DNA of 64,000 nt from Psammoneis japonica. Its lineage: Eukaryota. Positions 23,986 through 61,932 of the stretch are shown here, in pieces (within the stretch, counting starts at the first letter, position 1; the number at the start of each line of letters is the position of its first letter). The position numbers and the translations under genes are program-made. Location: contig QPGO01000064.1 of assembly GCA_008632985.1 (NCBI GenBank), positions 248,001 to 312,000 on the forward strand, in the 5' to 3' direction. The notes under the pieces are model-generated. The model did not search any database. It was not told the origin of the DNA and saw only the letters and a list, made by a program, of their open reading frames with translations.

Positions 23986-26083
23986 TTTGCACTTCGCGTA
24001 GCATCAGCACTGAATGTTACGTAGCGCCCTTCATGATGGAATCGCACAACAGCATTTCTCTCTTGCCCTTTTTGCATAAATGCCAATGCCATGACCAGCA
24101 ATGACATTGTTGTTGTGATCAGGTCAATTGCGCCGGTTTCAGCTCTAGAGTAGATGTAATGCGTAGTTCAAATTTGGCGAAGAATTCCATGGTCCGTGCG
24201 TCGTCAGGATCAGAATCTTTTCAGCCACGGCACCATGATTGCACTGCTTTTTACTGATGTTTCCATGCAGGGCTTTGCTTTTTCATCAACATTGCAACAA
24301 CAATGCGGCAAAGCATCATCTCGGAAGCACCCACCAAACACCACATGCTGGCATCGTCAAGCAAGAAGAGAGGTGCGCTGCCTGCTGCAACAATGAAAAA
24401 TCTTGTGATGCTGCAAAGAGCACAAATGCCCAGCTCACTCAGTGTGTGTCCGAGCGCAAGGAGCAAGCAGAGGACCATGTTTTGGCCTCCAGAAAGCCTC
24501 CCATCAACAAAAACACCTCCTCTCATGGCAACTTTGCATCAAAAAATGTCTTTTTGCTCACTTTTGTTCTTTTTGCAAAAAACTCTCATCTCATGTGTCA
24601 AGAGCAACAAGAGCATCTTTCTCTCCTTGGGGCCTTCTTGCGCAACCCTTGCAAGAACCGTCTGGCTGAGAATGGATTGCATGTCATTCATGGACAAATT
24701 GCCACCAAGAACATTGGCATCTTTTGCCATCAACTGGCCCTGAAGGATCAAGACCACGAGCACGACCTGGTCACGGCATGGAGTGCAGCACAGGGAGTTG
24801 TGCTCTTTCTTGACAGCTCTTGGCCAGTGGACTTGGTTGGCGAAAGGGGGGCTGACAATCTCTGGGGATGTCACCATGATGTGACCTGTGGCAGCACACC
24901 ACCTGGCAACAAAGACTGGCCCAACCAGCCTTTCTCTCATTCTCTCCACGGTGTTTTGTCACGTCGTGCACTCCGACTGGCCGTCTGAAGTGATTGCGGT
25001 GGTTTGCAGTTGAACACTCGAACAGAGCCACATTTCTATGATGTCTTTGACGAGAAAATCTTAGAGCTTCAACAGTGGGGAGCAAAACGACCCATCGGCC
25101 ATCATTGCCGACACAATCTTTTCGTGTGTGCAGCAAAAATGAACGGCATGTGATGCTGCAGCTTTCGATCTGTGGGCTTTTCCCGTGCTTTTCGAGCCAG
25201 TCCTGTTGCCCCTAACTTCAAGATGTGACCAAAGTGAGCAAAGCGATCACAACCGGAAAAGAAAACTGAAGCACACAACAAGCAGTGTGATCACCTAAAT
25301 TTTGTGGGAAAAAAACCGTTGAACAATTTGGTGGATGAATGTGTTTCAATGATCACATCTCTCCCTCAAACACTGTCATCCGAACAAACCCTCAGTGTCT
25401 CACCCCCCTTTTCACATGAGGAATTTGGCTCTGCTGTTCGTTTTCTCCGATGACGCGATTTGAGAAAAAACCGTTAAATTGAGCAGTGATCACCTCCATT
25501 TCCCACAAAATGGAGGTGATCACTGCTTGTGGCCGGCAACCATTCGCAGCGCTCGTGGCATCGCTTCAGGCTTCGGGCAAGCTGTTCTATGCCACAAACT
25601 CTTGGACCATGATTCTCAACCAAAAATGCCATGAGCACAATGTTTCGCATTGGCATTTGTGTTTCAAATTCAGCCCAGAAAGCAAAGATTCTTCCCTCCG
25701 ACACGACGGTTGACGGTTCATCGTCCACCACGGCACACTGTGGGCAACAGTGCTGTGCAGAAAGGGCATGAAGAGAGAAACTTCCAAGAGGCAGATCAGA
25801 TCATCAAAGGACTTTCCCGCCCACTCGACACCTTTGAGAGATGTCATGAGGCTACCCGAACCGTTGTGCGTCACTCTTGAACTCTTGACATCAGGTCTTG
25901 CCATTCCCGAACCACGTCTGCGACTAAAAATGAGAATGCTGTGAGAAACCGCGACTGCAGTCACGGCGGATGCTGAACGATGACGAGAAATCTATGGCGT
26001 TGTCCTGCACTTTTTTTCTTGCAAGGTCGCTTTCATCCTTTCCACTGTTTTTTACTTTGCTCTGCAAGACGTTCATCCACATC

Positions 26084-28679
26084 ATGGACCGTCGCAACAA
26101 GCATGACGATGAAGATCAAACAAAAGAATCAGAACAAGATTTTGAAGATTTGGTCTGTGATTTCAAAGAAGCTGCGTCTCCTGACAGCTGCAAGGAAAAG
26201 ATGATGAACAACCCCCAGCACGCTTCTCATCAACGTCATCAAGAACGAAAAGAAGCCTTGATGCTTGACAGCGAACAAGTTGAGATGGCTTCAAACGATG
26301 TTTCAAGTGCACGTGATCAAGAGATGCCGTCTCCTGGAGTCGCAGATCAGCGGCACAATTCTGATGGCCATGATGACGTGCTTCCACATCCTGGAGCTCA
26401 ACGAGTGGGAGGAAATGACCAGGAGGATGAAGAGACTCTGTTCTTGTTTACAAATCCTCCTTCTACGTCTGAGCAAGAAGCAGCACAGGCGGCACCCACC
26501 CCGACGGCTTTTCTCGTGCCTCCACCAGGACGTTGGGAACAATGGTGGTCCAAGACCCGCAACCGTCATCTGTTGATTGGTGGGGTCCTGGCAGTCGTTG
26601 GGGCTCCAGTGGCGGGGGTGGTGACCTTGGCTGTTGAAACTTCACCTCCGACGACCCCATCTCCAACGAACGTGCTGGACTTGTCAGACCTGGACGGCTC
26701 CAACGGCTTTCTCATCAATGGAATCGGCAGCTTTCCCCTGTCATCTGCTGCTTCTGTGGCAAGTGCGGGTGATGTCAATGGCAACGGGATCCATGATGTG
26801 GTTGTGGGAGGTCAGTTTGCAGAAAGTTTGGACACTGGCGAGGCCCATGTCATTTTTGGGCGACATGACTTTCGTCCCGCATTCAGCGTGAACACCTTGG
26901 ATGGGTCCAATGGATTTGCTGTCTCGGGAGCCAATTCGTCCGACAGAACTGGATGGGCAGTGGTGGGTGTGGGGGATGTCGATGGTGATGGGTTTGCTGA
27001 TGTCTTGATTGGCGCCTGTGACGCAGATCCTTTGGGCCGCGACGCAGCTGGAGAAGCCTGCGTGGTCTTTGGCAGACCTTGTGGTTTCCCTGCCAATCTT
27101 GATTTGTCGACCCTTGATGAACGCAATGGCTTTGCGCTGCGTGGCATCAATGGAGGTGATCAAGCGGGGTGGTCTGTTGCGACAGCTGGTGATGTCAACG
27201 GGGATGGTTTTGATGACATTGTCATTGGAGCTCCTGGACCTTTTGCTTTTGAGAGCGGCGATCGTCCAGGTGCCGCATGTGTCATTTTTGGCAGAGCAGC
27301 AAGTTCTTTCCCTTCTGCATTTGATTTGTCAACACTCGACGGAATCAATGGCTTTTCGCTGATTGGGATTGAGAATGGTGACAATGCAGGGGTCTCGGTT
27401 GCAGGTGCCGGCGATGTCAATGGCGATGGTCTTGGTGACCTTGTTGTCGGGGCACACAGTGCCACTCGAAATGGCAATGTTGATGCTGGCGAGGCCCATG
27501 TCATTTTTGGAAGAGCCGGCGGTTTTGAATCTTCCATCAATTTGTCTGCACTCGACGGAAACAATGGTTTCATCTTCAAGGGGACTGACGAATTCGATCA
27601 CACAGGGAAGTCAGCAGCTGGCGGCGGCAATGTAAATGGAAACGGTCTGGACGATGTCATGATTGGTGCGCACAACGCTGGTCCGGGTTCTGATGCTCCC
27701 GGTGAAACATGTGTTGTCTTTGGGAAGTCTGCAGGCTTTGATTCTTTTCTGGATTCTTCAATGCTTGACGCGTTCCAGCCCTAGGTGGGACTCCGTGTGA
27801 CATTGGGCCCGTAGAATTCTACGTGCGAGCTCCGTAGTACGAGAATTTAATTAATGGATATATTTATCTTCAACATCAAATAAACGGCCAAGTTTGTGGT
27901 ACAATTATGCCTCTTACCACTCGACGTTTTTGCAACTTCGCCTGCCCTACGCGATTCTTAAGACATTGTAGAATCGCGCTGCAACAAAAAATGTCAAAAG
28001 TTGTTGGACGGATCGCTCAATAAGTGCACCGTAAAATGACACAAAATATCGAAAAAATCACGTAGAAATCTACGTGCGCGACATACGACGAGACTCAAAA
28101 AACTATCGATGTCACAGTTCAGTAGTACGAGGTCCCACCTAGACCTGGAACGCGTCGCTTGACGGCACCAATGGATTTGTCGTGAAAGGTGTCAACAATT
28201 CGGACCATGCCGGGGAATCTGTCGCTGGTGTCGGCGATTTCAATGGCGATGGTTTTGACGATGTCATTGTTGGTTCCCATGGCGCAAATCCAGACAACAA
28301 GGATGACGCTGGACAGGCATGCATTGTCTTTGGAAAGGGTGCCAGTTTTGCCTCTGCGATTGATTTGTCAACGCTGGATGCCAAGAATGGTTTCATCATG
28401 AACGGCGTTGCTCCTGGTGACTGGGCCGGGTGCGCAGTGGCCAGCGCTGGTGACGTAAATGATGATGGCTGTGATGGTGTCTTTGTTGGGGCACCCGGTG
28501 TTCTTTCAGGTGGTGAGGCCCATGTCGTTTTTGGTGACGGAGCGTGCAAAAAACCCAGAAACAGCAATGGCAGGGCCCCAGTGATGCGGAGGATTGGATT
28601 CACAAGGGCTGGAAATCAAGTTCAAATGCGAAGACAGTTTGTGTTGTCTCACGCCGCCCTTCTTTTTTGCTCTTCATGA
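26084..28679 (+). pseudogene. Type-II membrane FG-GAP (integrin-alpha beta-propeller) repeat gene, hypermutated and interrupted by a MITE
   Basis: Seven LDG.NGF...AGDVNGDG.DD..IGA...G.A[H/C]V.FG repeats, TM segment, PTTPSPT linker, zero Tyr. Removing 27767-28160 restores the frame (SMLDGTNGFVVKG). Confidence 0.9.
27767..28156. mobile_element. 390-bp non-autonomous TIR element (MITE), complete copy
   Basis: 25-bp TIRs GACGCGTTCCAGCCCTAGGTGGGAC / GTCCCACCTAGACCTGGAACGCGTC (2 mismatches), 4-bp TSD GCTT (27763-66 and 28157-60), second copy at 50940. Confidence 0.95.
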
Positions 28680-29600
28680 ATGGAATGTTCGTGGATGCAA
28701 TGTCGCCTTGTTGTTGTCAACGGGTCAATTTGTGGCCAAGTCAAATCTTGATGCGATTCCTTGGTGCGCGCAAAGTCAGGGGCGGAATCCACTTTTTTCC
28801 CTCCGACGTTTGCAGCTTTGCTTCAGCGCTCATCTTTGGCTGCGACATCTGAGTTCGTTGGTTTTCCTGCAATCATGTGCAAAACTGGGATTGCTTTGTT
28901 GTTTCGTCAACGGTGGTCATTGTTGCGACTGCTCATCTTGCTACAAATTGCCAAACACTTGGCAAAAACGCACGCAAACCGCCTTCGTTCGCCTCTGAAG
29001 GGAAAATTTCCATTCGTTGCGATTTTGTGCCAGAGCCACGTGGAAATTTACAGCGCTGCGTCTTGCTGCTTTCCGACTCCCGCCTCCGACCTCCGATGAA
29101 GACACGGCGAAGCACGAGGATGTGTCCGACAATGGCGGTGCCCATTGTCATCGATTCTGCCAATTTTCACACTCTCCCGTGTTTCATTTAACTCCAAATG
29201 GTGATGAAAGAGAGCTTTGGTGCTTTGCATTTTTTCCATTGGCGGTTTCACTCACATTTGTTCTCCGTCTGCACCATTTTGACATCCCAGCTAGTGTGAC
29301 GCGTAGTTTTTGCTTCTATTCAGGAGCATTGCGGCTTAAGTTGTCGTTCATCAACCAACACTGGTGAAATTCGTTCGATTGTTGAATGCCTGGTGTTGCT
29401 GTGTGCACATTTGAGGCAATGGGAGGGCAAGAAATGGCTCGTGCAAGAGCGCACAACGCGTCATGTTGCTTGACAGATGCAACAGATGGCAGAGTTGGAT
29501 GTGATCAATGAAGAGGTTGAATTTATGGTGCACAGGAGGGCAAACATCAACTTCTCTCTGTCGGCGGAGGGAGTGACTCGCTCACAACTAATTTTAGATT

Positions 29601-29790
29601 GGGTTCCATGCTGCTCTGGGTTGTTTGTTCAACACTGCTCTAGATTCAATGCTGTGCTCTCTAGAGGTTATTTGTTCAATGCTGCTCTAGACAAGACACT
29701 GCTCTAGGTTCTTTGTTCCATGCCACTCTAGATTCGACACTTGTCCAGGTTCTTTGTTCAATGCTGCTCTAGATTCGACACTGCTCTGGC
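29601..29790. repeat. Degenerate ~41-bp minisatellite, ~4.5 copies
   Basis: Unit approx TGCTCTAGGTTCTTTGTTCAATGCTGCTCTAGATTCGACAC. Confidence 0.8.
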
Positions 29791-29849
29791 ACCAATGCAA
29801 TCGGATCATGCAGTGGCATTGTTGATTCCACATCATCTGTTTTTTTTCT

Positions 29850-30320
29850 ACATTGCTGGCATCCATCCCAATGAAGATCCACACTCAATGGCATGGCACA
29901 AATGCCGTCTCCTCTTTGGGCTTGGTCGGTCTACGAGACTGGGGCTTTCCTCCGGGTGCACGACATGGCGCGCCACTCCTCTTGCAATTTTCAAACTCCT
30001 CGACCGAAGTTTGCCACTCATCGAGCTCATTCTCATTCCTCTGTGCAACATTTCGAATTTAGTTTGGCTCATCTACAGAAAAATGCCCACATCTAATACA
30101 TTGACGGTGCGCCTCGTCGTCTGGCAGGCATCAGCCGACCAGAAACTTCCTGTCGCGCTCTTCGGCACACCGCACCATGGCTCGGTTCCCTCAGCTCGTC
30201 GAGCATTTTACATCCCTCGTGGGACCATCTACATCGTCATACTCGACAGTGTCATGTGGAGTTTCGGCGTTTGATTCCCGTGCACGGACACGGTTGTGCA
30301 CAGCGTTTGTTTGCCATGGT
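29850..30320 (-). pseudogene. Decayed coding fragment (CxxCGH..VDEP motif)
   Basis: One minus frame reads QCIRCGHFSVDEPN*IRNVAQRNENELDEWQTSVEEF...PKEETAFVPCH with stops. Confidence 0.3.
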
Positions 30321-30624
30321 TGAAGAGTGCGAGCGGTGTCATCTGTGTTGCAAAAAATCAACGCGCGGGAGGATTGTGTACTTTTCTACGTAGGCTGGTA
30401 GATCGAAGATCGCCACCTGGACAGAATAAATCGATATTCGTCTCTGAAGATTTTCATTGATCTGCAACCCGGAAGTGAAAGATATTCCCTCCGACACCGC
30501 GATCCGTATCTTTTCCTGGCTTCGCGTTTTGCAACCCCGATAGGAGCTGAGAATGAATCGACAACTACTCTCCCCGAGATAGCATAACGTTGTTGTTAGT
30601 ACTCTGATCGTAGTAGCACTGAAA

Positions 30625-43008: not shown

Positions 43009-43085
43009 AACTACTGTATAGAGGGGAACATCATTTTTGCACTTCTTTTGGTATATACTATACTCCGTATCAAGCTTTTTAAAGG

Positions 43086-43740
43086 TTCATCGTCGCGGTG
43101 TCATAAGCGGTTTCTCGTTGGATTACTTGAAAATATATGCCGACACAAGGCGCATGGAACGCTTATCTATCATTCCAACTAAGCTTTGTTTACAAGGGGC
43201 AAATGAGAAAACGACACCAAGCAGCTGCTTTCTTTAAGTCTGGTGTTCAAAATCTACTCCAGAATCTACGGTAATGCAGACTTCTCGCTGAAAGATTGAG
43301 TTCTAGGTCCTACCTTTTGCGACATCCAACACTTTATGAGAGATGGAAGTAACACTTCTTATTGGTTCTTTTCATGATATACCCCTTGTAACTAGATGCT
43401 CCAACAATAGTCGAACTTACCACGGCAAAGACGTACCAAGCTCTTTACACTTCAACGTTGCGGTGTCATCAGGGGTTTCTCGATGGCATGCTCATCTATG
43501 ATTTCCAACTGTGCTTTGTGTGCAGGGGGCAAATGAGAAAAGGACACCTAACAGTTGATTTCTTTTAAAAAATCCGGTGTTGAAAATCCACTGCAGACTT
43601 GTTCGCTGAAAGACTGAGTTCTATGTCCTGTTGCACACCTCATTAGAGATGGGACTGACACTTCTTGCAGGCATTTTTCATGACATGCCCCGTTGAACCA
43701 GATGCTCCAAAACCAGTCGAACTTGTTGCAGGCAAGGAAA
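43086..43740 (+). repeat. Diverged tandem duplication (copy 1 ~43086-43450, copy 2 ~43451-43740)
   Basis: Shared GCGGTGTCAT, GGGGCAAATGAGAAAA, CGCTGAAAGA.TGAGTTCTA and AGATGCTCCAA..AGTCGAACTT. Confidence 0.9.
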
Positions 43741-43819
43741 GCGTTTGGGCGCTGTGCACACCAAAGACACAAGAGCAACTTGGACAACTGACTTGGCTGT
43801 CACAAACAACATGTGCACA

Positions 43820-44650
43820 GTTACAAACATTTTTTTCTTGCGGCATCTATTTTTCTGCCTCTGCAAGCTGCAAGAATCCTCACAATGAGCCTTTCATTGA
43901 AGTCAATTGCACTGCGGTGCATTTTGAACTCCTTGACAAGTTTTTCAATGGTCTCTGGAGACATGGATCCCTCCTTGACCTCCAGAGATGTGCCAGCATT
44001 TTCCATGTAAGAGCAAATGCATGGTCAGAAAAACTTGCGTGCTTTTTCAGTGGTGAGCACATTTTTTGCCAACAGTCATTCTCGTGTGAACCAATTCCCC
44101 AATGTCTTGCTTTTCCCTCTTCCTTGACAAGCAAAGGTCGCAAGCAATGGCGCTGCTTTGTCAGCACCCAACAACATTCCTGCCATTTCTGGGTGACACT
44201 TGGTTGTTCAGTCAGTTGCCACAATTATTTTGCAACCTGCTCAAGGCAGCCACAGGAGAAGACCTGTTGACAGTGGCTTCTTGTGGTTGCTTTGGCACTG
44301 ATTGGAGGATTGCATCAACAGGAATCATTGTGGCTCTCAGAGTCATTGTGCAGAAATTGTGTGGAAGAGTGCCAGAAACAATCGTCATCATTCTGTCCAC
44401 CCTTCCACACATGAGTGTCAACTTCTCGGGAAATCAATTGAAATGTCATCTGACCAAAGGCACTGCTCTTCACCATGCAAATCAAAACACCTTTGGTCAA
44501 ACAACACTTCAATTGAGTTTCCGAAAAGTCGCCAGCTCCAGTCACCCTCTCGCACGACATTGTGCGCATTTCTCTGCACGATTTGGTGTTTTTCCTTGTG
44601 ACTCTTGTGACATTTTCAAATGATTCCTGTTGCATGCAATGTGGTCAAAG
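43820..44650 (-). mobile_element. Degenerate IS630/Tc1-mariner-like DDE transposase C-terminal relic
   Basis: Frame-broken TKCHPEMAG..ECCW..TKQRH, VLTTEKARKF and IEKLVKEFKMHRSAIDF segments. Confidence 0.5.
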
Positions 44651-45199
44651 GGGGTGAAGGCCACCCTTTGCACAAAAGGCGCAGCTTTTGATTGTGCAAA
44701 AGTGGCACGATGCAAGAGCAATGGCTGCAACAAGCACTTGAGTTCTTTTGTCAAACTGGCAATGGAAATCAACAAAGTTGTGGCATTGGCACTGGCATCT
44801 TTGGTTGTTCTGTACAAGGGTGTGATGGCATTGAGGAGATCAGCACAGCTTGCAACATTTTTGGCTTTGGGGGTGTTGTTGGGACCAAATGAGGCACCCG
44901 TGCAAATGACATTGGAAGCAACCAAAAGGACATTTGGGCTCTGCTGCAATGTTTTGGCCCTCCAACTTTGATGAAAAGGATTGGCCCATGCTGCCACAAT
45001 CACTCCAAAAGGTTCAACTGGCAAGGAGCTGGTGCCGCTGAAGGAGAAGTGAGAAAAAGCATCAGCAGTTGTTGCACTCAATGCAGCCGTTGACCCAATG
45101 GCAATGACAACCCATCTTTCTAGAGAAATTGAACAGCACAACCACCTTTCATCACACAATGCTGTGCCAGTTGCCTGGAGTTTCTGCTGTCTTGTTGTT

Positions 45200-47450
45200 T
45201 TCCTCAATGGCCAACATCACATGAATGAGATTGTTGGTTGTTGTGTGGGACTGTGTGTGCACCTTGGCACTTCTTGCTCTTTGCAGGCATGACACACCAC
45301 AACATGAGGAGGCTCTCCACACTCAGCCCAAACTGGCTTTGGGACACCCTGCCCATGTTCTCAGCTGCAACCTTGTCAATGTCTGGGAACAGCAAACCAT
45401 CTCTCTTGGGTGCACCACCCAGCCTTCTGGATTGAATTTTGAATCTTTGTCAATTTTGCATGCCTGTCATGACGTGCCCACAGAACAGCTTGCCCCACAA
45501 TGCATCTGCGCTGAAGCTGGGCATCTTGCATCTTGTGCGCAACCCTGCAGTGCTCCTGGTTGACATTTTGACAATGTGTGTTTGCTGTTGACAAGGTGAT
45601 CAGGGAGGACTTGGTTGCAAGGACCTCAAAAAACTTGAGGGAACAAGCAATCTGTTTTCACAAAACCTTTGTCCCCCGTGCATTCTGTGCTGGGCAGAAT
45701 TTTCCAAAGCCTGAGACAGATGTCTCTTGGCTCTGAATCCTCATCCAATGTGTGACTTTCTGGAGTCAAGGGGCCACCAAGCCAGCGCAACACATCCCAA
45801 CAATGCTCTTTTGTCATTTCCAAGTGCACACCAAGAATGTCACAATGCAGCTCCTTCTTGCTGCGCAGCCAATGAAGACACTCATGAATCTCAAGCTGTT
45901 GCAGAGGCTCCTCTGGAGAATTTTTTGTGACAATCCCAAAGCCTTCTCACTCAATTTGCTCTTCCATTTGATTTTGATTTTAACACAACAACTGTGTCAC
46001 CCCCGCCACTCCAGAGTCTTAAATCTTTTCACATCGGCATCTGCCAAAGCCTCGCAAATGTCAACCACTCATCAGCGGCATTGATGGCATGCTCACAATT
46101 TGACTTTGTTGCATTGGCAGAGCCATCTGCTCCATGAGTCAAGCTGCAAATGCTTTCAATGTCAGTTGTGTGCAAGTTGGAACTCTCGCCTTCAGTGCTC
46201 CAATTGCTGTTGCTGTCATCATCTGACCCAACAAAGTTGCCAGCTTCTGAAAACTCATGATGACTCTGCTTCCTCCAGAGTGAACATTTCTGGCATGTTG
46301 CATTGAATCTTCATTGGTTGCATCCTTGTCCATTGCACCCTCATCAACCAACTTTGCCACCTCCTCCAGTTCTTTTCCTGCCAAAAAAATTGACTCAAAC
46401 CATCCAGCAACTCAAGACATTTTGAACCAGTTTTCATTTGGCACTGTCTTTCCACTCTGCAATCATGGCTTTTTCCTTTGGGCAAGCTCCTGTCAACTCC
46501 ACAAAATGTCTCTTGTCAGCCCATGCACCATGTGCCCTGGTGTGCTCAAACAACAGAGCACAAGGAGCAACAAAGTCTGTCCACAGAAAGACAGAGCAAC
46601 GTGCCTTGTTGCCATGCTCTGTGTGTGCACAGTGTGCTGCAACATCCTTTTTACGGTCTCCAAAGTTGCATCTTTCCCATGAAACAACTCAGCTGTTTTT
46701 GATGCATCCTTCTTTGTGAATTTGTTGGGCCTTCTTTCATTTTTGAAATGCTTGCAAGGCATTGGCAATGCAGACAGGAATTCTCCATGCTTTTCCCACC
46801 TTGGCCTGTGTTGATTTGGACAATTTAAGACAGCAGCAAGCACAAAGCCAAAAATGCAGTCAGCATGCTCTCAAATGGGACAACAGTGAATGAAACACTT
46901 CACAGTCAGCACCTGTTCAAACTGAGTTGGTGTCACTGGATCACACACAAGTTTCTTCTCCTTTGAGTCAAACATCACTTTGGGAACCTCCAACATGGCA
47001 CATCAGAAAGAAAGGAAGCCACACACTTCTCAGCCTTGAAAGCAATTGAAGCCTGCCCAAACAAATCCTTTGCAGCAATGGGGTTGCTGTTGTGCCATTC
47101 TTCAGAAGTCAGTTGGCAGCGGTTTGCAGAGTTGTCCTCAAGAAACTCTGCCAAACAGTCCTCTGCATGCTCAGTGAGACAAGCCAAATCAACATCAGGT
47201 TCTGCCTCAGCTTTGCACTTCTTCCTGCTCTTGGCAGCCCAGCTGCTGACCTCTCTTTTGTGCATTTCACATCAGCCCTGGCAATGACTTTAACTCCACA
47301 TTTGAAAGCACATGATTGTTCTCTTTGTTTTCTCATCTCTTTGGCTCAAATTGACAAACTCTCCAAATGTTTGACTGCCGCAAGCTTGCTTGTGTTCCTC
47401 AAGCTTCTGACAAGCAAGATGCTCATTGCGCGCATGTCCTTGCAATGGTT
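45200..47450 (-). mobile_element. Degenerate PIF/Harbinger-ISL2EU-type (DDE_Tnp_4) transposase relic
   Basis: EEWH...AAKDLFG, PRWEKHGEFLSAL, ELFHGKD, LEIHECLH and LRLWKILP..GDKGF motifs with frameshifts. Confidence 0.65.
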
Positions 47451-47599
47451 TTATGAGTCACCTGCTTTGTTCTTGGCTGGAGGTGAAGAAAAGCAGCTTT
47501 CCATGCTTTTTCACACTGCGCTGAGGGTCAAATTTGTCAGCAACCACCTTTGCATCTGCTGCGAAGAACGAGTGTGAACGAAAGCAGAGCGAAGTTCGA

Positions 47600-50500
47600 A
47601 AAGTGAAAATTGTGAGATTGAATTTTGCTCTGTGATTTTTGGTTTCTCCGAAACGAGTTCTCAATGGCCTGAAGCTTCTGCACTGCTTCCACAGACAAAA
47701 GGCCTTTTGGAGAAGATGTTTGTGACAACAGATTGTCCGGATGCGATTGCTGTTGACACGTGAGATGTCAACATCGTCAATCGATCGCACCTGCAATTTT
47801 CGACATCTGATCAACTCTGTGTGATCGTTCTGTCCTTTGCATGCATCCACGACTGTGGCTGCGATTGACGCGCAAATGACACACAATTGCAAACATGTGT
47901 GCAACAGTTGCGTGCTGCACTCGCCTCCCCAATTGCACATTGAAGTTGTTCGTCAAGTGGAACAATTTGACGGACATTGATTTTGTCAACAATGTCTCCA
48001 CGTTAACTGCATTGTGCCATTGGCAATGACTGTTGTTGTTTTGGGTGGGCCAGCATGCATGGGACCGTTTCAATTTCCAAACGTCTTTTGAGAGCATCGT
48101 GATTTGTCTCACGCTTCATGTGTGTGCATGATGCTCTCTGTGCATGTGTGCATGTGGTGTGCTGTGGCATTGCATCGAGCATTCTCTCTGACATTGTTTT
48201 GTTCATGTGGGCACAAGGACCAACTGTCCTGCTGTTCTTTCATGGTGTCGATTGCACACAGCATCATGATTGCACACAGCATCATGCCCAGTGCTCGATG
48301 TGCGCTCTTGTTTGTGGCATTCACTTGCTCGCTGGTGGATTTCGCGCAGTTTGGCGGCTCACTTCATGTGCCACATTGCTCTGCTGCACCACCACGTTTC
48401 TCAAGCAGCAATCAACGATGGTCAAGGATGTGACCATTTCGTCTTGGCAATCAATCCTGTGATGGTCATGAATTCCATTGTGGATTTTTTGTGCTTCAAC
48501 CATCTGTCAGTTGGATTTTGGTCGTCACTTGGATGTTTCTTTTTGACATGCCGGCATCATTTGTCATTCCAAAGGCATTGGTTTCGTGCACCAAGTGGAC
48601 AAATGTCCATTTTTCTTTTCTTTTTCTAGATCTTTGGCACATCTTGTGTGTCGACATGATGCATGTTTTAATGTCTTGCCTCGCACATTGTGCAATGCAA
48701 CCGCGCGGGTGTTGTGAGATTGTCTTTTGCCAGTGTGAAGTGGATGCTGCAACAGTTTTTCTGACCGTCCTTTAAAACAAGGCGATTTTGTCCTTGTGAC
48801 ATGAGCATTTTTCGATCTCGCTTGCCTCCACGAAAAGTGTTCGCACAACATGTCGCGTCCGACAATTTGGAGGGAAATGTCTTTGTCCCATTTTAACGGC
48901 AGGACATTGTCGCAGGATTCAACACTCCGCAGCAAGTCGGCTTTTTTGATTTTAAATTGTGGTGTTCCATGTTTGAAACAAACAGCGTTTCAATCTTTCA
49001 CAATTGGTCAAATTCCTTTTAAATGGACGCCCCCAAGGACTGTGACAGGAGAAGGTTCTCACACGTCGCAGAATCACGTCAGATTTTTCACGGTGAGGTC
49101 CACTGGTTCGCCCCACTCCTTTGTCTGAGGAACTTTTCAAAAGGATTTTGAACCTCTTAAGAAGGAGACTGAGTGGCTGCATTGTTTTGGATTGGATGCA
49201 TTGCTGCAGCTGTCACTTGATTGGAATCGACGGCGTGACAATGTGAGTCGAAGACCACTGGTCTCATCATTGACTCTGTTTGCTGCGTCACATTTCTCAA
49301 TGTGATCGGCATTCAGCTGGAACATTTTTGTGTCGAAGAGTGCATCAACATTCTTCACAGGGCAATTGCTTCACTCCCATTTGATTTCTTCAATTGCGCA
49401 GTCTAACATGATTGCAAGACTGGACACCAAGTCGCGTCCCATGATCACATTGCTCGACCTTGAAGAAGATTTCGTGTCATCGACACATGCTGTTTGAACA
49501 TCAGTGTGTCTTAAATTTGCACAGTGAGAACTGGACTTGGTTTCTGCTGTCAGTCGTGAAGAGCTCACCCTTGGTTTCCCAAGTTTTTTGGTGGCGGACA
49601 TTTTGGTTCTCAACTTTCGCACGATTTTGCGCAAAATCATGGGCTGATGATGTTCTTTGTCGAGAAGAACGTGCTGAAGCTTGTTTTTTGCTTTTCTCAG
49701 AGAAGCAGTCATGCAGATGGCAAGAACAGGACTCGCGCAACATGCCATGATGTTTTTTCTGGGTTTCCAGACGTCCTGCAATGCGGCACACTCCTCGATC
49801 GGTGTAAATTTTTGATCGGACTCGATCGGGTCAATTTTTCTAAATTGACAGTTTTGTTCATCAAGCATTTTAGAGTCGCAACTTTCGCTCTTGTTTTCTC
49901 GTTCCTTTGCCAAGCAACTCGCTTTGTTGGTTTTTGTGAACTGCCCAGTCACTGTGGAGCTCAGTTCCTCTTTCACAGAGGTGTTTCTGCTGTCGTCACG
50001 CGACCGCGCGCGATTGCTGTCAGAGCATCACATTTTTTTGGGTCTCTTTCAGAGCCACCCTTGCACTCTTTTGCTCTTTTTCTTGTTCAAGGAACTCGCT
50101 TTGAGCATTTTTTTGAACTGCCTGATCAATCATGATGTTCAACTCTTTTTTTGCGAGCGGCATTTTCGTTGTCGCGACGCCACGTGCGACTGCCATTAGA
50201 ACAGCGCCGTTTCGGATCACGCTCAATGTGTCCACGGCATTCTTTCGCTGGTTCATTTTTAGAACAGCTTCAATCCATGATGCAGGTGTTCTTTTTTCAA
50301 AGATTGCACCTTTTGTTCACTTTGGATTGTTCAGGTGCCATGTGGGAGACCATTTTGGAATCAAATTTGGAGCCATTTTGGTTTTGGAATCAACTTTGCT
50401 GTCAGCGCCTGATTTGACACATTTTTTCATCATGGACGTCTTCAACGACCTTTGGATGACTCAAAACTTAATCAGCTCATCAAGGATGAGTTGCGACAGT

Positions 50501-50939
50501 TGATTGTTTTGGACAGTGGACTGATGCTGCCATCCTTGCGGTGCGAGCAATGGCCAATGGCTCACGGCTCGGTTTCCCGCCAGATTCAACTTAGAATCGA
50601 TTGAAGGGTCGTGTGGACGCTCTTCATTGACCTCTTGGGTCGAATGGGCACTCTCTTGCTGCTGAGAGCCTTTGGTTTCTTCAGATCATCTCAAAACAAA
50701 TGACTCTGATTCTGAAGTGCAGTTCCTGGAAAGACATGAGATGAGAGACTCTTGAGGCACTTTCCAACGGTTCCTTCTTGCTCTTTGGACTCGAGGCTTG
50801 TCGATTTGGTCTCAAAAAACTCTTCAACAGTCTCTCCTTGCAAAGTAGATGCATTTCTCGGATCTGATCGACTCGGGACTTGCGCTCTCTGCAGCCATGA
50901 CTTGGTGTAGATTTTTTGATGATGCAGTGCACTTGTGGA
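47600..50939 (-). mobile_element. Degenerate Ty3/gypsy LTR retrotransposon relic (gag, protease, integrase; RT/RH largely missing)
   Basis: Protease-like VLLD...IMGRDL..LAIMLD...IKWE, LSLLLKRFKIL, integrase end NGTM..GDIVDKINVRQIVP, and PPT GGGGAGGCGAG (47930-47920) followed by TG at 47919. LTR end not defined. Confidence 0.7.
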
Positions 50940-51311
50940 GACGCGTTCCAGCCCTAGGTGGGACTCCGTGTGACATTTGGCCCGTAGAATTCTACGTGCG
51001 AGCTCCGTAGTACGAGAATTTAATTAATGGATATATTTATCTTCAACATCAAATAAACGGCCAAGTTTGTGGTACAATTATGCCTCTTACCACTCGACGT
51101 TTTTGCAAATGCACCTGCCCTACGCGATTCTTAAGACATTATAGAATCGCGCTGTAACAAAAAATGTCAAAAGTTTTTGGACGGATCGCTCAACAAGTGT
51201 ACCGTAAAATGACACAAAATATCAAAAAATCACGTAGAATTCTACGTGCGCGACATACGACGAGATTCAAAAAACTATCGATGTCACAGTTCAGTAGTGC
51301 GATTCCCACCT
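50940..51311. mobile_element. Second MITE copy, right TIR truncated
   Basis: About 96% identical to 27767-28141. Ends at TCCCACCT with no terminal 15 bp and no TSD. Confidence 0.95.
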
Positions 51312-51945
51312 TGGCCCATGTTGATTTGGACAATTTAAGACAGCAGCAAACACAAAGCCAAAAAGGCAGTTAGCATGCTTTCAAATGGGACAATGGTGCG
51401 TGAAACACTTCACAGTCAGCAAATGTTCAAACTGGGTTGGTGTCACTGGATCACGCACAAGTTTCTTCTCCTTTGAGTCAAACATCGCTTTGGGAACCTC
51501 CAACATGGCACATCAGAAAGAAAGGAAGCCACACACTTCTCAGCCTTGAAAATGATTGAAGCCTGCCCAAACAAATCCTTTGCAGCAATGGGGTTGTTGT
51601 TGCGCCATTCTTCAGAAGTCAGTTGGCAGCGGCTTGCAGAGTTGTTCTCAAGAAACTCCACCAAACAGTCTTCTGCATGCTCAGCGAGACAAGCCAAATC
51701 AACATCAGGTTCTGCCTCAGCTTTGCGCTTCTTCCTGCTCTTGGCAGCCCAGGTGCTCTCTGTTTTCCTGTCAGTGCAAAATTTCAACCTGCAGCCTTGA
51801 ATCATGACAATGTCCCTTTTGACACTCAAGTCCGTTTGCTCCAAAATTTTTGTTTGTCGCATCTGTGTGGGCCCCATGGGTCGCTGCTCCTCCCATTCCA
51901 ACAGTTCAAAGGCAAGGAGGAGTTTCTGCCAACTTTCGCCCATGC
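51304..51945 (-). mobile_element. Second copy of the Harbinger/ISL2EU-type relic
   Basis: 51304-51752 aligns without gaps to 46794-47242. Confidence 0.9.
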
Positions 51946-54872
51946 CTACAGCAGAAGAGGAGCCAGACGGTAATCATGATTTGGAGGACCACAACGGCGA
52001 TGAAGAGAGTGGAATCTCTCGTCAACAGGAATCTATTGGAACAGGCGAAAGTCGGGGTAGTCAAAGGAGGCCCTTGTTAAGGAGTTCGGCTCCGAAAAGA
52101 CATTTTCGCACACAAAGTGTGGAACATACACTAGTTGGTTTGACGAAAGCCATGATGGCTTTTGTCGGGAAGCTTAAAGATGATCACAATCAAAGCAATC
52201 CAGCAAGCGTTCCCGAGGGGTCGCCTGCGGCAGGATTTACCGAAAATGCAATTTTACTTGCAGATCAAGCTTTGAGCAGTCCGACGTCTACTACCGGCCA
52301 CCTTTCGACTGTACCCGAAGGCGAGTCGGAAGTGAATTCGTCGCACTCCAACAGCGATGACAACGAAGATGAAGCAAAAGAGGGCGATAAGTCTCATGGC
52401 CGCATTCCTTTTTTCGGGAAGGTTGTTAAGAATAAAGAGAAGAGAAGAAAGAGTGCATTTGAAGAATCAACCGACAAGTTTAAGGAAGATATGGAGGTGT
52501 GGAGGAACTTTTTCCATCTTCGCCGAGATCGCGTTGCGGCGTACCTCAAGGTGGTTTTGCTTTACCTTTTGGTACCGCTCATTGGAGTTGCAGGTATCTT
52601 GTATTACATCTTCAATAATCCTCCGACGGGAAAAGAGGACGAGACCGTGCCGCTTGATGGGGAAGAAAATCAGACTGCGGGAGCGTCGGCGAGCTTTATA
52701 CTCATCTTTTGTGCTCGTCAAATCATCACATTTTCCATGGCTCTTTCAATGCAAGGCTTCCTTATTGACTTTTTGGCGCTTGACTTGCGTATTGTGTTGC
52801 GAGTTCTTGGGCCCGTTCTAACTTTGTGGCTTGTACAGTCCAGGGGCTGGCCTCATATTATGTTCTGGTGGTCTATCTTTGACTTTGCAATACTGTCAGG
52901 TGACAGCCGCTTTGTCAAACATTGGTTGTTTTGGCAAGATTCGATCGGTTTGTTCAATGAAAGCAACCCTTCCGGAAACATTGTGAGCAATGACTGGTAT
53001 CTCGACATGCTGATAGTTGCCGTGACCGTCAGCGTCGTTGTTTCCATCAAGCGTTTCTTGGTTGGGCTCTACTTGAGCCGCCAAACATTCTCTCATTACG
53101 GCCAACCGCTTGCCAATGTCATGAATAAGATTGTTCTTGTCAGTGAGGTTGCTGGATTGGCGAGATCTATTGCTAGCGACGATGTTGAGCCTTCAAAATC
53201 ACAGCTGATTCAAAGTACGGGCTTAGGCATTTCATACGATGGCGAAGATGACGGCAATACCTGCAAGAGTTCGGCTAGCGGTGGTCCCGATCTTATTGTT
53301 GACACGAACAACATCGATCCCCTTACTGGCAGTCTCCATTACACAGAAAAGATGAAGTTGATGCAGCTTCTCGACCAATGGGAAGAACCAACACGGCATG
53401 ACCCTGGAAGCAGCGAGAATGCTACGATTTCAGCTGTTCTAAGGTTCCGAAAAGCCCTCACTTTCGTTCAGAATCGATACCCTTTTGGTCAAGCGTTTGG
53501 TCTTGCAGATAATAGGGAGACTTGTGTCGAGTCTGCACAGAAAGTTTACCTTCGTCTGATGACGCATTCGCCGACCGAAGTTCTTCAATTTGAAAGGATC
53601 GCTTTGCTCGCTATCGATGACAACGAAAACATTGACCCAATCAAAGCTAAGGATTTGATACAAGTCTTCCGCCCTGATCGTCAAGGTTTCCTGACAATGA
53701 TTGACTTTGTTCGAAGTGTCGATTCTGTTTACAAGGAGTTCCGTTTGCTCGACGCAAGCATACAGAATTCCTCGCAGATTGATCGCGCATTCGAAAATAT
53801 TTTTAACTTCGTGTTTTACACGATTGTTGTTATCATTGTTCTTTCACAACTCGGGTTGTAAGTTTCTTTCTATTTTGTTGCTTGCGTACGATGCTGTCTG
53901 CTTTTTCATTGAGCCATTTTTGTTCCCAATTCTTTTGCAGTGATCCCTTGGCCCTGTTTTTGTCGCTTAGCAGCATCATTTTGGCATTTGCGTTCATGAT
54001 TGGAAATGCTAGTGCCAATTACTTTGAGGGGTTGTTGTGTAAGTCCCTACTACTTCAACTTTTTTTGGCGCTTCCAAAATAGACTCGATTCTCACGCTTT
54101 TTGCTGCGCCCTAAAGTCATTCTCGTCAGAAAGCCGTATGGTATAGGAGACAGGATCTCGGTTGCTCCTGTAGAATCCGATACTTCTCTCGATGGTGTAA
54201 TGCCGTGGGTGGTACAGCATGTGACTCTTTTTGAAACTGTGGTGACTTTCTTACCAACGAACGAGACTGCCAGTCTGTCAAACGGTTCTTTAGCAGCGAG
54301 TCGCATCGTCAACTGGGCGCGTTCACCGCAGGCCCAATTCCATATTTTTCTTGAGTTTCCTTTGGAAACTCCTTACGAGAAGCTCTTGATCTTCAAGACG
54401 GCCATTGAAGAGTACATCAAGGCGCGACCCAGGGAGTGGCGGGCATTGAATGGATTCCGTGTGAATCGCATTTATGCTCAGAAGAATTACATTGAGTTTA
54501 TCATTGTCATTCAGTAAGTTTTTCCCGAGAGTGCATTAAGATGACAATGCCACGATGGCTCTCTGGATCTGACTCACTTGTGATTTTTTCTTTTCATTGC
54601 GAAACAGACACCGGGAAGCTTGGCAGGAGATAGGCACGGTCTTGGATTCCAAAGCCAACTTGACAAGTTACTGTCAAGAGGTCTCTAAGCAGCTTGGTCT
54701 GCAGTACCAGGCACCGAAACTTCCTGTGGACTTGCGTTACAGCGCCATGCCCGCGGAAGAAGAATCATCCGGGGAATCCAACCGCAGCCGAGTAGATAGC
54801 CTTGACCAGGAAGCCTTACAGAAGGAATTTCAATCAGTAGCGCGAAACAAACATCAAATTCGGGCTGGTTGA
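51942..54872 (+). CDS. MscS-like mechanosensitive channel with EF-hand; three introns; 5' end uncertain
   Basis: TM helices, FRPDRQGFLTMIDFVRSVD EF-hand, FAFMIGNASANYFEG, VRKPYGIGDRI, NGSLAASRIVNWARS. Introns start ~53858, ~54039 and ~54514. Confidence 0.9.
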
Positions 54873-61900: not shown

Positions 61901-61932
61901 CTAATGTTTGTCTAAACTCTAAAATATCGACG

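What the first reader, a model, noticed from the sequence alone, without database searches (positions are those of the whole stretch)
26084..28679. FG-GAP gene in which every conserved Tyr became Cys or His
Seen: the 604-aa and 165-aa ORFs contain no Tyr. The G.AYV.FG position reads GEAHV, GEACV, GAACV, GEAHV, GETCV, GQACI and GEAHV (7 of 7). GACDA, GAHSA, GAHNA, AGCAV and DGCD fit the same pattern. Established: Tyr is the consensus at this position in FG-GAP repeats. TAY->TGY (Cys) and TAY->CAY (His) are exactly A>G on the plus and minus strands. This fixes the direction of change and shows both strands are hit about equally. The frame and most CpGs are intact, so the TA process is far faster than background decay and also reaches host-type genes.
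Basis: partly seen in the sequence, partly recalled or inferred. Interest (0 to 1): 0.9.

Follow-up and report, generated by a model that had tools for sequence, protein, structure and literature searches.

The report
Tyrosine-free gene in TpA-purged DNA island
A cell-surface-type gene of a diatom-like alga has lost every tyrosine because it lies in a 6-kb stretch where nearly every TA step of the DNA was turned into TG or CA, the mark of a DNA-editing process so far reported in only one other, unrelated alga.

Summary
The 604-aa and 165-aa ORFs hold no Tyr. All 7 G..YV.FG positions read Cys or His, where 120 homologues have Tyr in 862 of 915 motifs. The two ORFs are one FG-GAP gene split by a 390-bp MITE. 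A public run holds the empty-site form.

The gene lies in a sharply bounded TpA-depleted island (about 24250-30350). Two more islands lie at 43490-52000 and 59900-61900. TA is lost equally at all three codon phases (4 observed, 75 expected) and in non-coding flanks. TA and CG losses (61 per kb) match TG and CA gains (60 per kb). A paralogue pair across an island edge shows TA changed to CA or TG at 13 of 16 sites, with no reverse cases. A second gene relic in the same island shows Tyr to Cys and Tyr to His at 2 of 2 sites.

Surviving TAs are context-biased: RTAY is almost extinct and YTAR is often spared. Young MITE insertions are untouched.

This matches the TpA-only hypermutation reported in 2026 for Bigelowiella natans. 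The organism here looks diatom-like, so this is a new member of a newly described kind. The enzyme is inferred, not shown.

The parts
24250..30350 (.). TpA-depleted island 1. It is strongly depleted at 24250-29290 and partly depleted at 29291-30350. It lies between two normal genes: ORF 22093-23523 on the minus strand and the FMO-like ORF 30625-32526 on the plus strand.
   Evidence: The 250-bp bins hold 0-3 TA against 7-16 outside. Non-coding parts hold 9 TA against 67 expected and 3 against 24 expected. In 29291-30350, 20 of 23 remaining TAs have a 5' pyrimidine. The right edge coincides with the end of a repeat of about 15 copies (depth drop at 30350).
24623..25060 (+). Relic of a second gene. 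It matches residues 262-398 of a 745-aa protein of unknown family (P0362). It is Tyr-free and has an in-frame TGA at 24986.
   Evidence: The representatives search gave E 3.6e-38. BLASTP gave 62% identity over 123 aa, with GYHYD in the homologue against GCHHD here. tblastn gave 61% over 139 aa read through the stop, where the homologue has Arg. The ORF shows coding-like 3-periodicity.
25287..25523 (.). Small inverted-repeat element, repeated in the genome.
   Evidence: It has 25-nt arms that are 92% complementary. Depth is 295-1378 against about 56 for single-copy DNA.
26084..27766 (+). FG-GAP gene, 5' part. It has an acidic N-terminus, a hydrophobic segment and then FG-GAP repeats. The open frame reaches back to an ATG at 25970.
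   Evidence: Pfam PF01839, E 7e-24. It holds 0 Tyr and 5 motifs with C or H. Depth is about single copy, 47-90.
27767..28156 (.). MITE insertion of 390 bp with normal TA content, flanked by GCTT at 27763-27766 and 28157-28160.
   Evidence: The inverted repeat has 30-nt arms. The 250-bp bins that hold the MITE contain 17 and 10 TA. Depth is 90,000-174,000, which suggests thousands of copies. One contig joins 27762 to 28157, skipping 394 bases, and this is the empty site.
28157..28679 (+). FG-GAP gene, 3' part with the stop codon.
   Evidence: The frame continues as DGTNGF.... Pfam FG-GAP, E 7e-10. It holds 2 motifs with C or H.
28680..30350 (.). Repeat of about 15 copies, including 41-nt tandem units at 29604-29790.
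   Evidence: Depth is 740-1030. Other copies read TA where the window has CA or TG at 28975, 29042, 29829 and 30192. One case runs the other way, at 29670.
43490..52000 (.). TpA-depleted island 2. CpG is also depleted in 43500-47500. It holds 467-bp direct repeats at 46793-47259 and 51303-51766.
   Evidence: TA o/e is 0.03-0.14 and CG o/e is 0.14-0.28 in 44-47 kb. The direct repeats are 93% identical.
50940..51311 (+). Second copy of the same MITE. It is truncated at its right end and is a TA-normal islet inside island 2.
   Evidence: It is 96% identical to 27767-28140 and the terminal-repeat pattern matches. Bin 51001-51250 holds 21 TA.
43154..43724 (+). Tandem paralogue pair that straddles the left edge of island 2. 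The outside copy is 43154-43418 and the inside copy is 43483-43724.
   Evidence: The copies are 71% identical. Of 16 aligned TA in the outside copy, the inside copy reads CA at 6, TG at 7, TA at 2 and GA at 1. No TG or CA outside reads TA inside.
59900..61900 (.). TpA- and CpG-depleted island 3.
   Evidence: TA o/e is 0.04-0.15, CG o/e is 0.2 and CA+TG is 1.8-2.1.

Best explanation
The FG-GAP gene lies inside one of three sharply bounded intergenic islands. In these islands a transition process specific to the TpA step changed almost every TA into TG or CA, on either strand. In coding DNA this turns every Tyr codon (TAY) into Cys (TGY) or His (CAY). It also removes NTA codons and T|A codon junctions. 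It can never create a stop codon, so the frame stays open while the protein is damaged. A separate CpG to TpG/CpA decay acts in parts of the same islands. The gene is most likely dead or dying.

What is shown: the direction of change, the dinucleotide specificity, the regional limits and a flanking-base preference. RTAY is almost always hit and YTAR is spared about half the time. What is inferred: the chemistry. The most likely route is enzymatic deamination of adenine to hypoxanthine in DNA at 5'-TA-3', by an ADAT2/TadA-like or other deaminase directed at silenced, repeated or foreign chromatin and fixed at the next replication. This has been proposed for the TpA-only hypermutation measured in Bigelowiella natans. 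I put about 0.8 on the hypermutation footprint and about 0.45 on adenine deamination as its chemistry.
For: Regional TA loss is sharp. TA o/e is 0.03-0.24 inside the islands and 0.46-0.68 outside.

The losses and gains balance. Against the background per kb, the islands show TA -34.4, CG -26.8, TG +34.2 and CA +25.4.

Three comparisons give the direction.
- 7 of 7 conserved Tyr sites in FG-GAP read C or H.
- 2 of 2 Tyr sites read C or H in the neighbouring gene relic, against a homologue that is 62% identical.
- In the paralogue pair at the edge of island 2, 13 of 16 TA sites read CA (6) or TG (7), with no reverse cases.

Other copies of the 15-copy repeat keep TA where the window has CA or TG at 4 listed sites, with 1 case the other way. 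Only 40 of 301 differences were printed.

All codon phases are hit equally and non-coding flanks are equally depleted.

The surviving TAs in the islands are 3 RTAY, 40 mixed and 48 YTAR. The background holds 583, 962 and 252. The chi-square P is 2e-27, or 3e-22 against non-ORF background.

Two MITE copies inside islands keep normal TA, so the islands were mutated before these insertions.

Contigs from an independent run reproduce island sequence with 0 differences over 452, 184 and 341 bp.

The gene looks unconstrained. It differs from a 60%-or-higher consensus at 76 of 282 conserved columns, including Asp to Asn at three 100%-Asp sites. The neighbouring TYW3 gene differs at 15 of 202, although its homologue set is different. 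Of the 10 listed differences between the window and run X1 within the gene, 7 change the protein.

A preprint (10.64898/2026.01.13.699255) reports A>G/T>C mutations falling only on TpA in integrated viral regions of B. natans. It also reports 324 low-TpA CDS, 124 TpA-poor/CpA+TpG-rich clusters and an ADAT2-like candidate enzyme. I read its abstract, Results, Discussion and one Methods section.
Against: No whole genome is held. I therefore could not test genome-wide extent, copy number at the time of mutation, or the presence of a deaminase gene.

No close unmutated orthologue of the FG-GAP gene was found. The best identity was 54%, so most ancestral TA sites are inferred.

No viral or transposase domain was found in any island. 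None of 154 stop-to-stop ORFs reached a Pfam cut-off. A 'foreign DNA' target is therefore unproven here.

The MITE has thousands of copies yet is unmutated. This argues against a simple repeat-triggered mechanism that is active now.

The two 467-bp direct repeats share most of their TG and CA and show only 4 CA/TG mismatches. Most conversion therefore predates that duplication, or the product is not random.

At tetranucleotide level, the gains did not track the losses predicted from background contexts (r = -0.02).

An empty-site form with an uninterrupted ORF exists, so loss of function is not proven.
Confidence: 0.8

Rival explanations
1. The TA loss is real and regional, but no dedicated defence deaminase causes it. 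Instead it is a by-product of a symmetric base modification at the self-complementary TpA step in silenced chromatin. That could be a modified A or a modified T that miscodes or is misrepaired. This would parallel the way 5-methyl-CpG decays to TpG/CpA.
For: CpG decay and TpA decay share the same islands in part. In 43500-47500 and 59900-61900, CG o/e is 0.1-0.3. Both target dinucleotides are self-complementary and yield the same products. The islands fill intergenic space between normal genes with sharp edges. The symmetric RTAY preference would suit an enzyme that reads duplex DNA.
Against: The two decays are uncoupled in places. At 47500-51000 and in the FG-GAP gene, TA is nearly gone while CG o/e is 0.6-1.0. 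I know of no TpA-specific DNA modification in this group (recalled, and not searched specifically). The B. natans data show bursts in only some lines. The authors read this as a regulated process.
Confidence: 0.2
2. The Tyr-free protein and the TA-free DNA are kept by selection. This could be avoidance of a nuclease that cuts TA or UA, or a functional FG-GAP variant with Cys or His at these sites.
For: The frame of 733 codons is open and an uninterrupted empty-site form exists. Pfam still recognises the repeats.
Against: TA is equally absent from non-coding flanks and from all six frames. Tyr is Y in 862 of 915 motifs of 120 homologues, against only 7 with C or H. Invariant Asp sites are also lost. 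Of 10 listed differences between haplotypes, 7 are non-synonymous. TA to TG or CA cannot make stops, so the open frame carries little weight.
Confidence: 0.05
3. The islands are foreign DNA, viral or bacterial, that arrived already poor in TA. Their composition is native and was not produced in place.
For: The nearest listed FG-GAP relatives are bacterial or metagenomic. The island edges are sharp.
Against: From recall, TA o/e of 0.03-0.1 is far below any genome signature I know. The donor's own protein family keeps Tyr. The paralogue pair and other copies of the 15-copy repeat within the same genome keep TA. A second relic in the island has a 62%-identical homologue with Tyr. The one IMG/VR scan made found no relative of the FG-GAP protein.
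Confidence: 0.05
4. This is a sequencing or assembly artefact. Modified bases in heterochromatin were miscalled, so the true sequence still has TA and Tyr.
For: Systematic miscalls at modified motifs are known for some long-read methods (recalled). The library type of run X1 is not on record.
Against: 31-mer contigs of run X1, at depth of about 56, match island sequence exactly over several hundred bases. Strand-mixed miscalls should also yield CG at former TA sites, yet CG is depleted, not gained. MITE copies inside the islands read normally.
Confidence: 0.03

Closest known systems
TpA-specific hypermutation of integrated viral regions in Bigelowiella natans (Mettrop et al., bioRxiv 10.64898/2026.01.13.699255)
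   Same: The changes are TpA to TpG or CpA only, on both strands. They form regional clusters that are TpA-poor and CpA+TpG-rich. Many affected ORFs are unannotatable and some are host-like. Island 2 passes the paper's own thresholds in 5 consecutive 1-kb windows.
   Different: The organism is different. It has long intron-free ORFs, and all 10 organism-named homologues of the neighbouring TYW3 gene are diatoms. Depletion here is near saturation (o/e 0.03-0.2), against Rho 0.45 for their NCLDV region. No viral or transposase domain was found here. CpG decay accompanies the TA loss in parts of the islands. A flanking-base preference (RTAY over YTAR) is seen here. The words flanking, trinucleotide, CpG, tyrosine and diatom do not occur in that text. 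No mutation rate was measured here.
Repeat-induced point mutation (RIP) of filamentous fungi
   Same: It is a regional, dinucleotide-specific transition hypermutation with sharp limits that inactivates genes and repeats.
   Different: The direction is opposite. RIP makes C:G to T:A changes, mostly at CpA, and so raises TpA (abstract of PMC2621366 in the listing). Here TpA is destroyed. RIP creates stop codons and this process cannot. Dependence on repeats is not shown here, because the FG-GAP gene is about single copy and a MITE of thousands of copies is untouched.
Decay of methylated CpG to TpG/CpA in silenced transposons
   Same: It targets a self-complementary dinucleotide, yields the same products, is limited to silenced regions, and is present in parts of the same islands.
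   Different: It cannot remove TpA. The two decays are uncoupled in the FG-GAP gene and in 47500-51000.
ADAT2/ADAT3 (TadA-type) adenosine deaminases with reported DNA activity (amphioxus BjADAT2, PMC10354150; Trypanosoma ADAT2 as cited in the preprint)
   Same: The change is A to I (read as G). The natural tRNA substrate A34 follows U33, which is a 5'-TA-like context (recalled).
   Different: No such gene could be sought here because no genome is held. For PMC10354150 I saw only the search listing and the start of the abstract. Any regional targeting mechanism is unknown.
APOBEC3 and ADAR hyperediting of retroelements and viruses in animals
   Same: A deaminase-driven burst of one transition type acts as a defence. 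ADAR prefers a 5' U, as stated in the preprint's Discussion.
   Different: Those enzymes act on cDNA or dsRNA of mobile elements. Here a mixed island of gene relics and repeats is affected in the chromosome. ADARs are confined to animals (recalled).
FG-GAP / integrin-alpha beta-propeller repeat proteins (PF01839)
   Same: It has the repeat architecture, the Ca-binding DxNGDG loops and 7 G..xV.FG strands.
   Different: The conserved Tyr is absent from all 7 repeats and several invariant Asp residues are replaced.

Membership tests
TpA-specific hypermutation (B. natans type) | Changes fall on TpA and give TpG or CpA. | tested here: met
   Tyr codons read C or H at 9 of 9 conserved sites in two genes. 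In the paralogue pair 13 of 16 TA sites read CA or TG, with 0 reverse cases. Losses and gains balance. CpG changes occur in addition.
TpA-specific hypermutation (B. natans type) | [quoted passage not shown] | tested here: met
   Windows 44001-49000 pass, which is 5 in a row. 60001-62000 gives 2 in a row. In island 1 only 1 of 6 windows passes the CpA+TpG cut-off, although TpA Rho there is 0.05-0.30. In all, 8 of 64 windows pass both thresholds. The thresholds are the paper's 5% tails for another genome.
TpA-specific hypermutation (B. natans type) | Targets are integrated viral, transposon or other foreign DNA. | tested here: inconclusive
   The islands hold repeats: a 15-copy element, an inverted-repeat element and 467-bp direct repeats. 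None of 154 ORFs reached a Pfam cut-off. The IMG/VR scan for FG-GAP relatives found none.
TpA-specific hypermutation (B. natans type) | A measured, ongoing mutation rate about 1000 times the background. | not testable with these tools
   This needs mutation-accumulation lines or pedigrees. There is only a hint: three adjacent CA/TG double differences between the window and run X1.
TpA-specific hypermutation (B. natans type) | The genome encodes an ADAT2-like candidate deaminase. | not testable with these tools
   No genome is held for this window.
Fungal RIP | C to T at CpA, giving TpA excess and AT enrichment. | tested here: not met
   TpA is depleted to o/e 0.03-0.24 and GC content is not lowered.
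Fungal RIP | It acts on duplicated sequence only. | tested here: inconclusive
   Gene depth is 47-90 against about 56 for single copy. The MITE has thousands of copies yet is unmutated. Copy number at the time of mutation is unknown.
Methyl-CpG decay | Loss of CpG with gain of TpG and CpA. | tested here: met
   CG o/e is 0.1-0.3 in 43500-47500 and 59900-61900 and 0.6-0.95 in the gene. In the relic, Arg codons of the homologue read TGA and TGC. This does not explain the TA loss.
FG-GAP repeat family (PF01839) | Profile match above the curated cut-off. | tested here: met
   The scores are 83.7 and 39 bits against a cut-off of 22.1.
FG-GAP repeat family (PF01839) | A conserved aromatic Tyr in the G.AYV.FG strand of each repeat. 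| tested here: not met
   Tyr is present in 0 of 7 repeats. I read this as secondary loss, not as non-membership.

The most novel reading that the evidence does not exclude
A TpA-specific DNA-editing genome defence, until now seen only in the rhizarian alga Bigelowiella natans, also operates or operated in the diatom lineage, so it is widespread or ancient among eukaryotic algae. It works in bursts to near saturation on chromatin-delimited islands. It has a tetranucleotide preference (RTAY much greater than YTAR) that could serve as a fingerprint to identify the enzyme. It disables genes without creating stop codons, which leaves Tyr-free ghost ORFs that gene predictors will call as genes.
Probability: 0.5. 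Interest if true: 0.85.

Novelty: new member of a known kind. Interest (0 to 1): 0.7.

Why it matters
If the same TpA-editing process is present in a second, distantly related algal lineage, it is unlikely to be a peculiarity of one species. It would then be a candidate for a general eukaryotic way of disabling unwanted DNA. It would be the mirror image of fungal RIP, removing TpA where RIP creates it.

The locus offers three things that the single published report does not mention:
- A protein-level read-out of direction: Tyr to Cys or His at 9 of 9 conserved sites.
- A flanking-base preference that can be tested on the published mutation list and on candidate enzymes.
- A relative time order: island mutation first, then duplication, then CpG decay, then a MITE insertion that is still absent from another form of the locus.

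There is also a practical point. Such islands yield Tyr-free open frames that annotation pipelines may report as genes.

Tried and rejected
- Whole genome: none is held, so no proteome-wide screen for Tyr-free models and no deaminase search was possible.
- Close unmutated relatives of the FG-GAP gene: two word-based searches, at near and shorter lengths, gave at best 54% identity.
- MITE terminal-repeat pattern in metagenome contigs: 0 matches.
- FG-GAP relatives in IMG/VR: none.
- Pfam on 154 stop-to-stop ORFs of the islands: only two sub-threshold hits, Vint at E 0.0019 and RbpA at E 0.0021.
- RNA evidence: no RNA holder was listed for the stretch.
- Rfam and tRNA scans of the window: nothing.
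- A strand-product rule (RTA gives RTG on the motif strand): it fitted 6 of 7 Tyr codons but only 4 of the 9 paralogue-pair sites that the rule predicts, so I rejected it. This was my own count from the alignment.
- Tetranucleotide mass balance against background contexts: no correlation (r = -0.02). The starting composition of the islands is evidently not that of the background.
- Stop-triplet density is only slightly lower in the islands (28.4 against 34.6 per 1000), because TGA rises. I dropped the idea that the islands are strongly ORF-rich.
- Earlier notes of this scan: nothing on this genome or this MITE. The word look-up returned only unrelated phage cases.
- Literature searches that returned nothing on TpA-targeted hypermutation in diatoms. 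The B. natans preprint came up.
Full report
**What is there.** The window looks eukaryotic. It has long open frames for a TYW3-Kelch fusion, a cytochrome P450, an FMO-like protein, an ADP-ribosyltransferase-like protein and a DUF5010-CBM protein. All 10 homologues of the TYW3 protein that carry an organism name are diatoms, at 33-39% identity. GC content is 47%.

The finding's two ORFs, 25970-27784 (604 aa) and 28182-28679 (165 aa), are both FG-GAP repeat proteins by Pfam, with E 7e-24 and 7e-10. They are one gene. Between them lies a 390-bp element (27767-28156) with 25-30 nt terminal inverted repeats, flanked by a GCTT duplication. Taking it out joins ...SMLD to GTNGF... in frame, giving 733 codons from the ATG at 26084.

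Contig depth in the one public run that holds the stretch (X1) is about 56 for flanking single-copy DNA. It is 47-90 over the gene and 90,000-174,000 over the element. The element is therefore a MITE with thousands of copies. One contig of that run joins 27762 to 28157 and skips exactly 394 bases, which is the empty site. The insertion is therefore absent from another form of the locus and is recent.

- Neither ORF has a Tyr.
- The strand motif G..x[VIL].[FY]G occurs seven times and reads H, C, C, H, C, C, H.
- In the 120 best homologues the same position is Tyr in 862 of 915 motifs, His in 5 and Cys in 2.
- At each of the seven columns, Tyr is present in 115-119 of 119-120 aligned homologues.
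In the GA[C/H].A positions Tyr is only 17-24% of homologues. In AGCAV and DGCD the commonest residue is Phe.

**It is a property of the DNA, not of the protein.**
- Against seven other genes of the window, the 733 codons should hold about 24 TAN codons, 22 NTA codons and 29 T|A junctions. They hold 0, 2 and 2, with Poisson P 4e-27.
- The non-coding flanks are just as empty: 9 TA against 67 expected in 24250-25969, and 3 against 24 expected in 28680-29290.
- In 250-bp bins the window shows three islands with sharp edges: about 24250-30350, 43490-52000 and 59900-61900. TA o/e is 0.03-0.24 inside and 0.46-0.68 outside.
- The only TA-normal patches inside the islands are the MITE in the gene and a second, truncated copy of the same MITE at 50940-51311.
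- Per kb, the islands have lost 34.4 TA and 26.8 CG and gained 34.2 TG and 25.4 CA relative to the rest of the window.

**Direction.** Three comparisons place TA as the older state.
1. The seven Tyr sites of the FG-GAP gene.
2. A second gene relic in the same island (24623-25060). I found it because its frame shows coding-like periodicity. It has a 62%-identical homologue, P0362 (745 aa, no Pfam family), which reads GYHYD where the window reads GCHHD. The homologue has Arg where the window has an in-frame TGA and a TGC, which are CpG-type changes.
3. A tandem paralogue pair that straddles the left edge of island 2. Of 16 aligned TA in the outside copy, the inside copy has CA at 6, TG at 7, TA at 2 and GA at 1. 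No TG or CA of the outside copy is TA inside.

In addition, other genomic copies of the 15-copy repeat at 28680-30350 read TA where the window has CA or TG at four listed sites, with one case the other way. That list is truncated to the 40 best-supported of 301 differences, so it is an illustration and not a count.

The two products are about equally common: 4 Cys to 3 His, 7 TG to 6 CA, and +34 against +25 per kb. Because TpA is its own complement, A>G on one strand cannot be told from T>C on the other.

**A context preference.** The 91 TAs that survive in the islands are not a random sample. Three are RTAY, 40 are RTAR or YTAY, and 48 are YTAR. The background holds 583, 962 and 252. The chi-square P is 2e-27, or 3e-22 when only DNA outside long ORFs is the baseline. 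The MITE copies look like background.

Scaled to background density, and using the narrower island set that leaves out 29291-30350, survival is roughly 0.5%, 10% and 46% for the three classes. This fits a simple model in which each strand is hit with probability of about 0.9 when a purine precedes the T and about 0.3 when a pyrimidine does. That fit is my own arithmetic.

In the weakly depleted tail of island 1 (29291-30350), 20 of 23 remaining TAs follow a pyrimidine, against about 42% in the background. A further idea, that the motif strand always yields RTG, failed on the paralogue pair: it was right at 4 of the 9 sites it predicts. I dropped it.

**State of the gene.**
- The open frame says little, because TA to TG or CA can never make an in-frame stop.
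- The protein differs from a 60%-or-higher consensus at 76 of 282 conserved columns. These include Asp to Asn at three sites where all 120 homologues have Asp, and Asp to Gly at a 99% site.
- Four Val to Ile and two Asp to Asn changes sit behind a C, as expected for CpG decay.
- TYW3, judged the same way against its own and different homologue set, differs at 15 of 202 columns.
- Of the ten listed differences between the window and run X1 within the gene, all are transitions and seven change the protein.
- I read the gene as dead or dying. The uninterrupted empty-site form means this is not proven.

**Order of events.**
- The 467-bp direct repeats in island 2 (93% identical) share 36 TG and 57 CA and show only four CA/TG mismatches. 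Most TA conversion therefore predates their duplication.
- The 5' copy has lost six CpGs that the 3' copy keeps, so CpG decay there came later.
- The MITE insertions came last.
- Three adjacent CA/TG double differences between the window and run X1 in the gene could be late, independent hits on leftover TAs. They could equally be double hits on CpGs.

**What it most likely is.** A literature search turned up one directly relevant report, the bioRxiv preprint 10.64898/2026.01.13.699255. I read its abstract, Results, Discussion and the Methods section on dinucleotides.

In mutation-accumulation lines of Bigelowiella natans, two integrated viral regions mutate about 1000 times faster than the rest of the genome. 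The changes are almost only A>G and T>C, and all fall on TpA. The genome also holds 324 low-TpA CDS and 124 TpA-poor/CpA+TpG-rich clusters. The authors propose an ADAT2-like DNA adenine deaminase.

The footprint here is the same kind of thing. By their thresholds, five consecutive 1-kb windows of island 2 qualify.

The organism here is very unlikely to be B. natans. Its genes are long single exons, whereas B. natans is intron-rich (recalled). Its TYW3 has no near-identical entry in the protein collection. Its named relatives are all diatoms.

That text does not mention diatoms, other species, tyrosine, flanking bases, CpG or stop codons. My five other searches found nothing on such a process in diatoms.

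**Mechanism.** What is shown: the specificity, the direction, the regional limits, the context bias and the relative timing. What is inferred: that adenine in 5'-TA-3' is deaminated in DNA by an enzyme directed at silenced or unwanted chromatin.

An alternative that I cannot exclude is decay of a symmetric TpA base modification, by analogy with methyl-CpG. The partial overlap with CpG decay and the symmetric RTAY preference fit this. The uncoupling of the two decays in the gene and in 47500-51000 does not.

I judge the other rivals unlikely:
- Selection for TA avoidance is unlikely, because non-coding DNA is equally depleted and the homologues keep Tyr.
- Native composition of foreign DNA is unlikely, because paralogues within the same genome keep TA.
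- Miscalled modified bases are unlikely, because independent 31-mer contigs match the island exactly and no CG is gained.

**Limits.**
- No genome, no expression data and no close orthologue were available.
- The read-laying table was truncated.
- The library type of run X1 is not on record.
- The supplements of the preprint could not be read.

Noticed in passing
window 27767-28156 and 50940-51311: This is a 390-bp MITE with 25-30 nt terminal inverted repeats and a 4-bp GCTT target duplication. Contig depth of 90,000-174,000 against about 56 suggests thousands of copies. One copy is absent from another form of the locus, because an empty-site contig exists. The second copy lacks the last 16 bp of its right end.
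   Followed up: partly
window 24623-25060: This is a relic of a gene related to a 745-aa protein of unknown family (P0362). That protein has two internal repeats, a Cys-rich region and a C-terminal hydrophobic segment. Only residues 262-398 are represented here, with an in-frame TGA where the homologue has Arg.
   Followed up: partly
window 43001-43500: The stretch just outside island 2 is unusually TA-rich (o/e 0.84-0.88, GC 40-43%). It holds the unmutated copy of the tandem paralogue pair. It may be a younger insertion.
   Followed up: no
window 29604-29790: There are about 41-nt tandem repeats whose TAs all sit in CTAG, one of the contexts that survives best in the islands.
   Followed up: partly
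window 34142-35218: This ORF has an ADP-ribosyltransferase domain (Pfam ADPrib_exo_Tox E 8e-12, ART E 5.5e-07) and lies in normal, TA-containing DNA.
   Followed up: no
window 30625-32526: A single ORF joins a phosphonate-binding-protein-like domain (residues 62-197) to an FMO-like flavin monooxygenase domain (residues 368-591).
   Followed up: no
window 46793-47259 and 51303-51766: These 467-bp direct repeats are 93% identical and lie 4.5 kb apart inside island 2. The layout resembles an LTR element, but no pol or gag domain was detected between them.
   Followed up: partly
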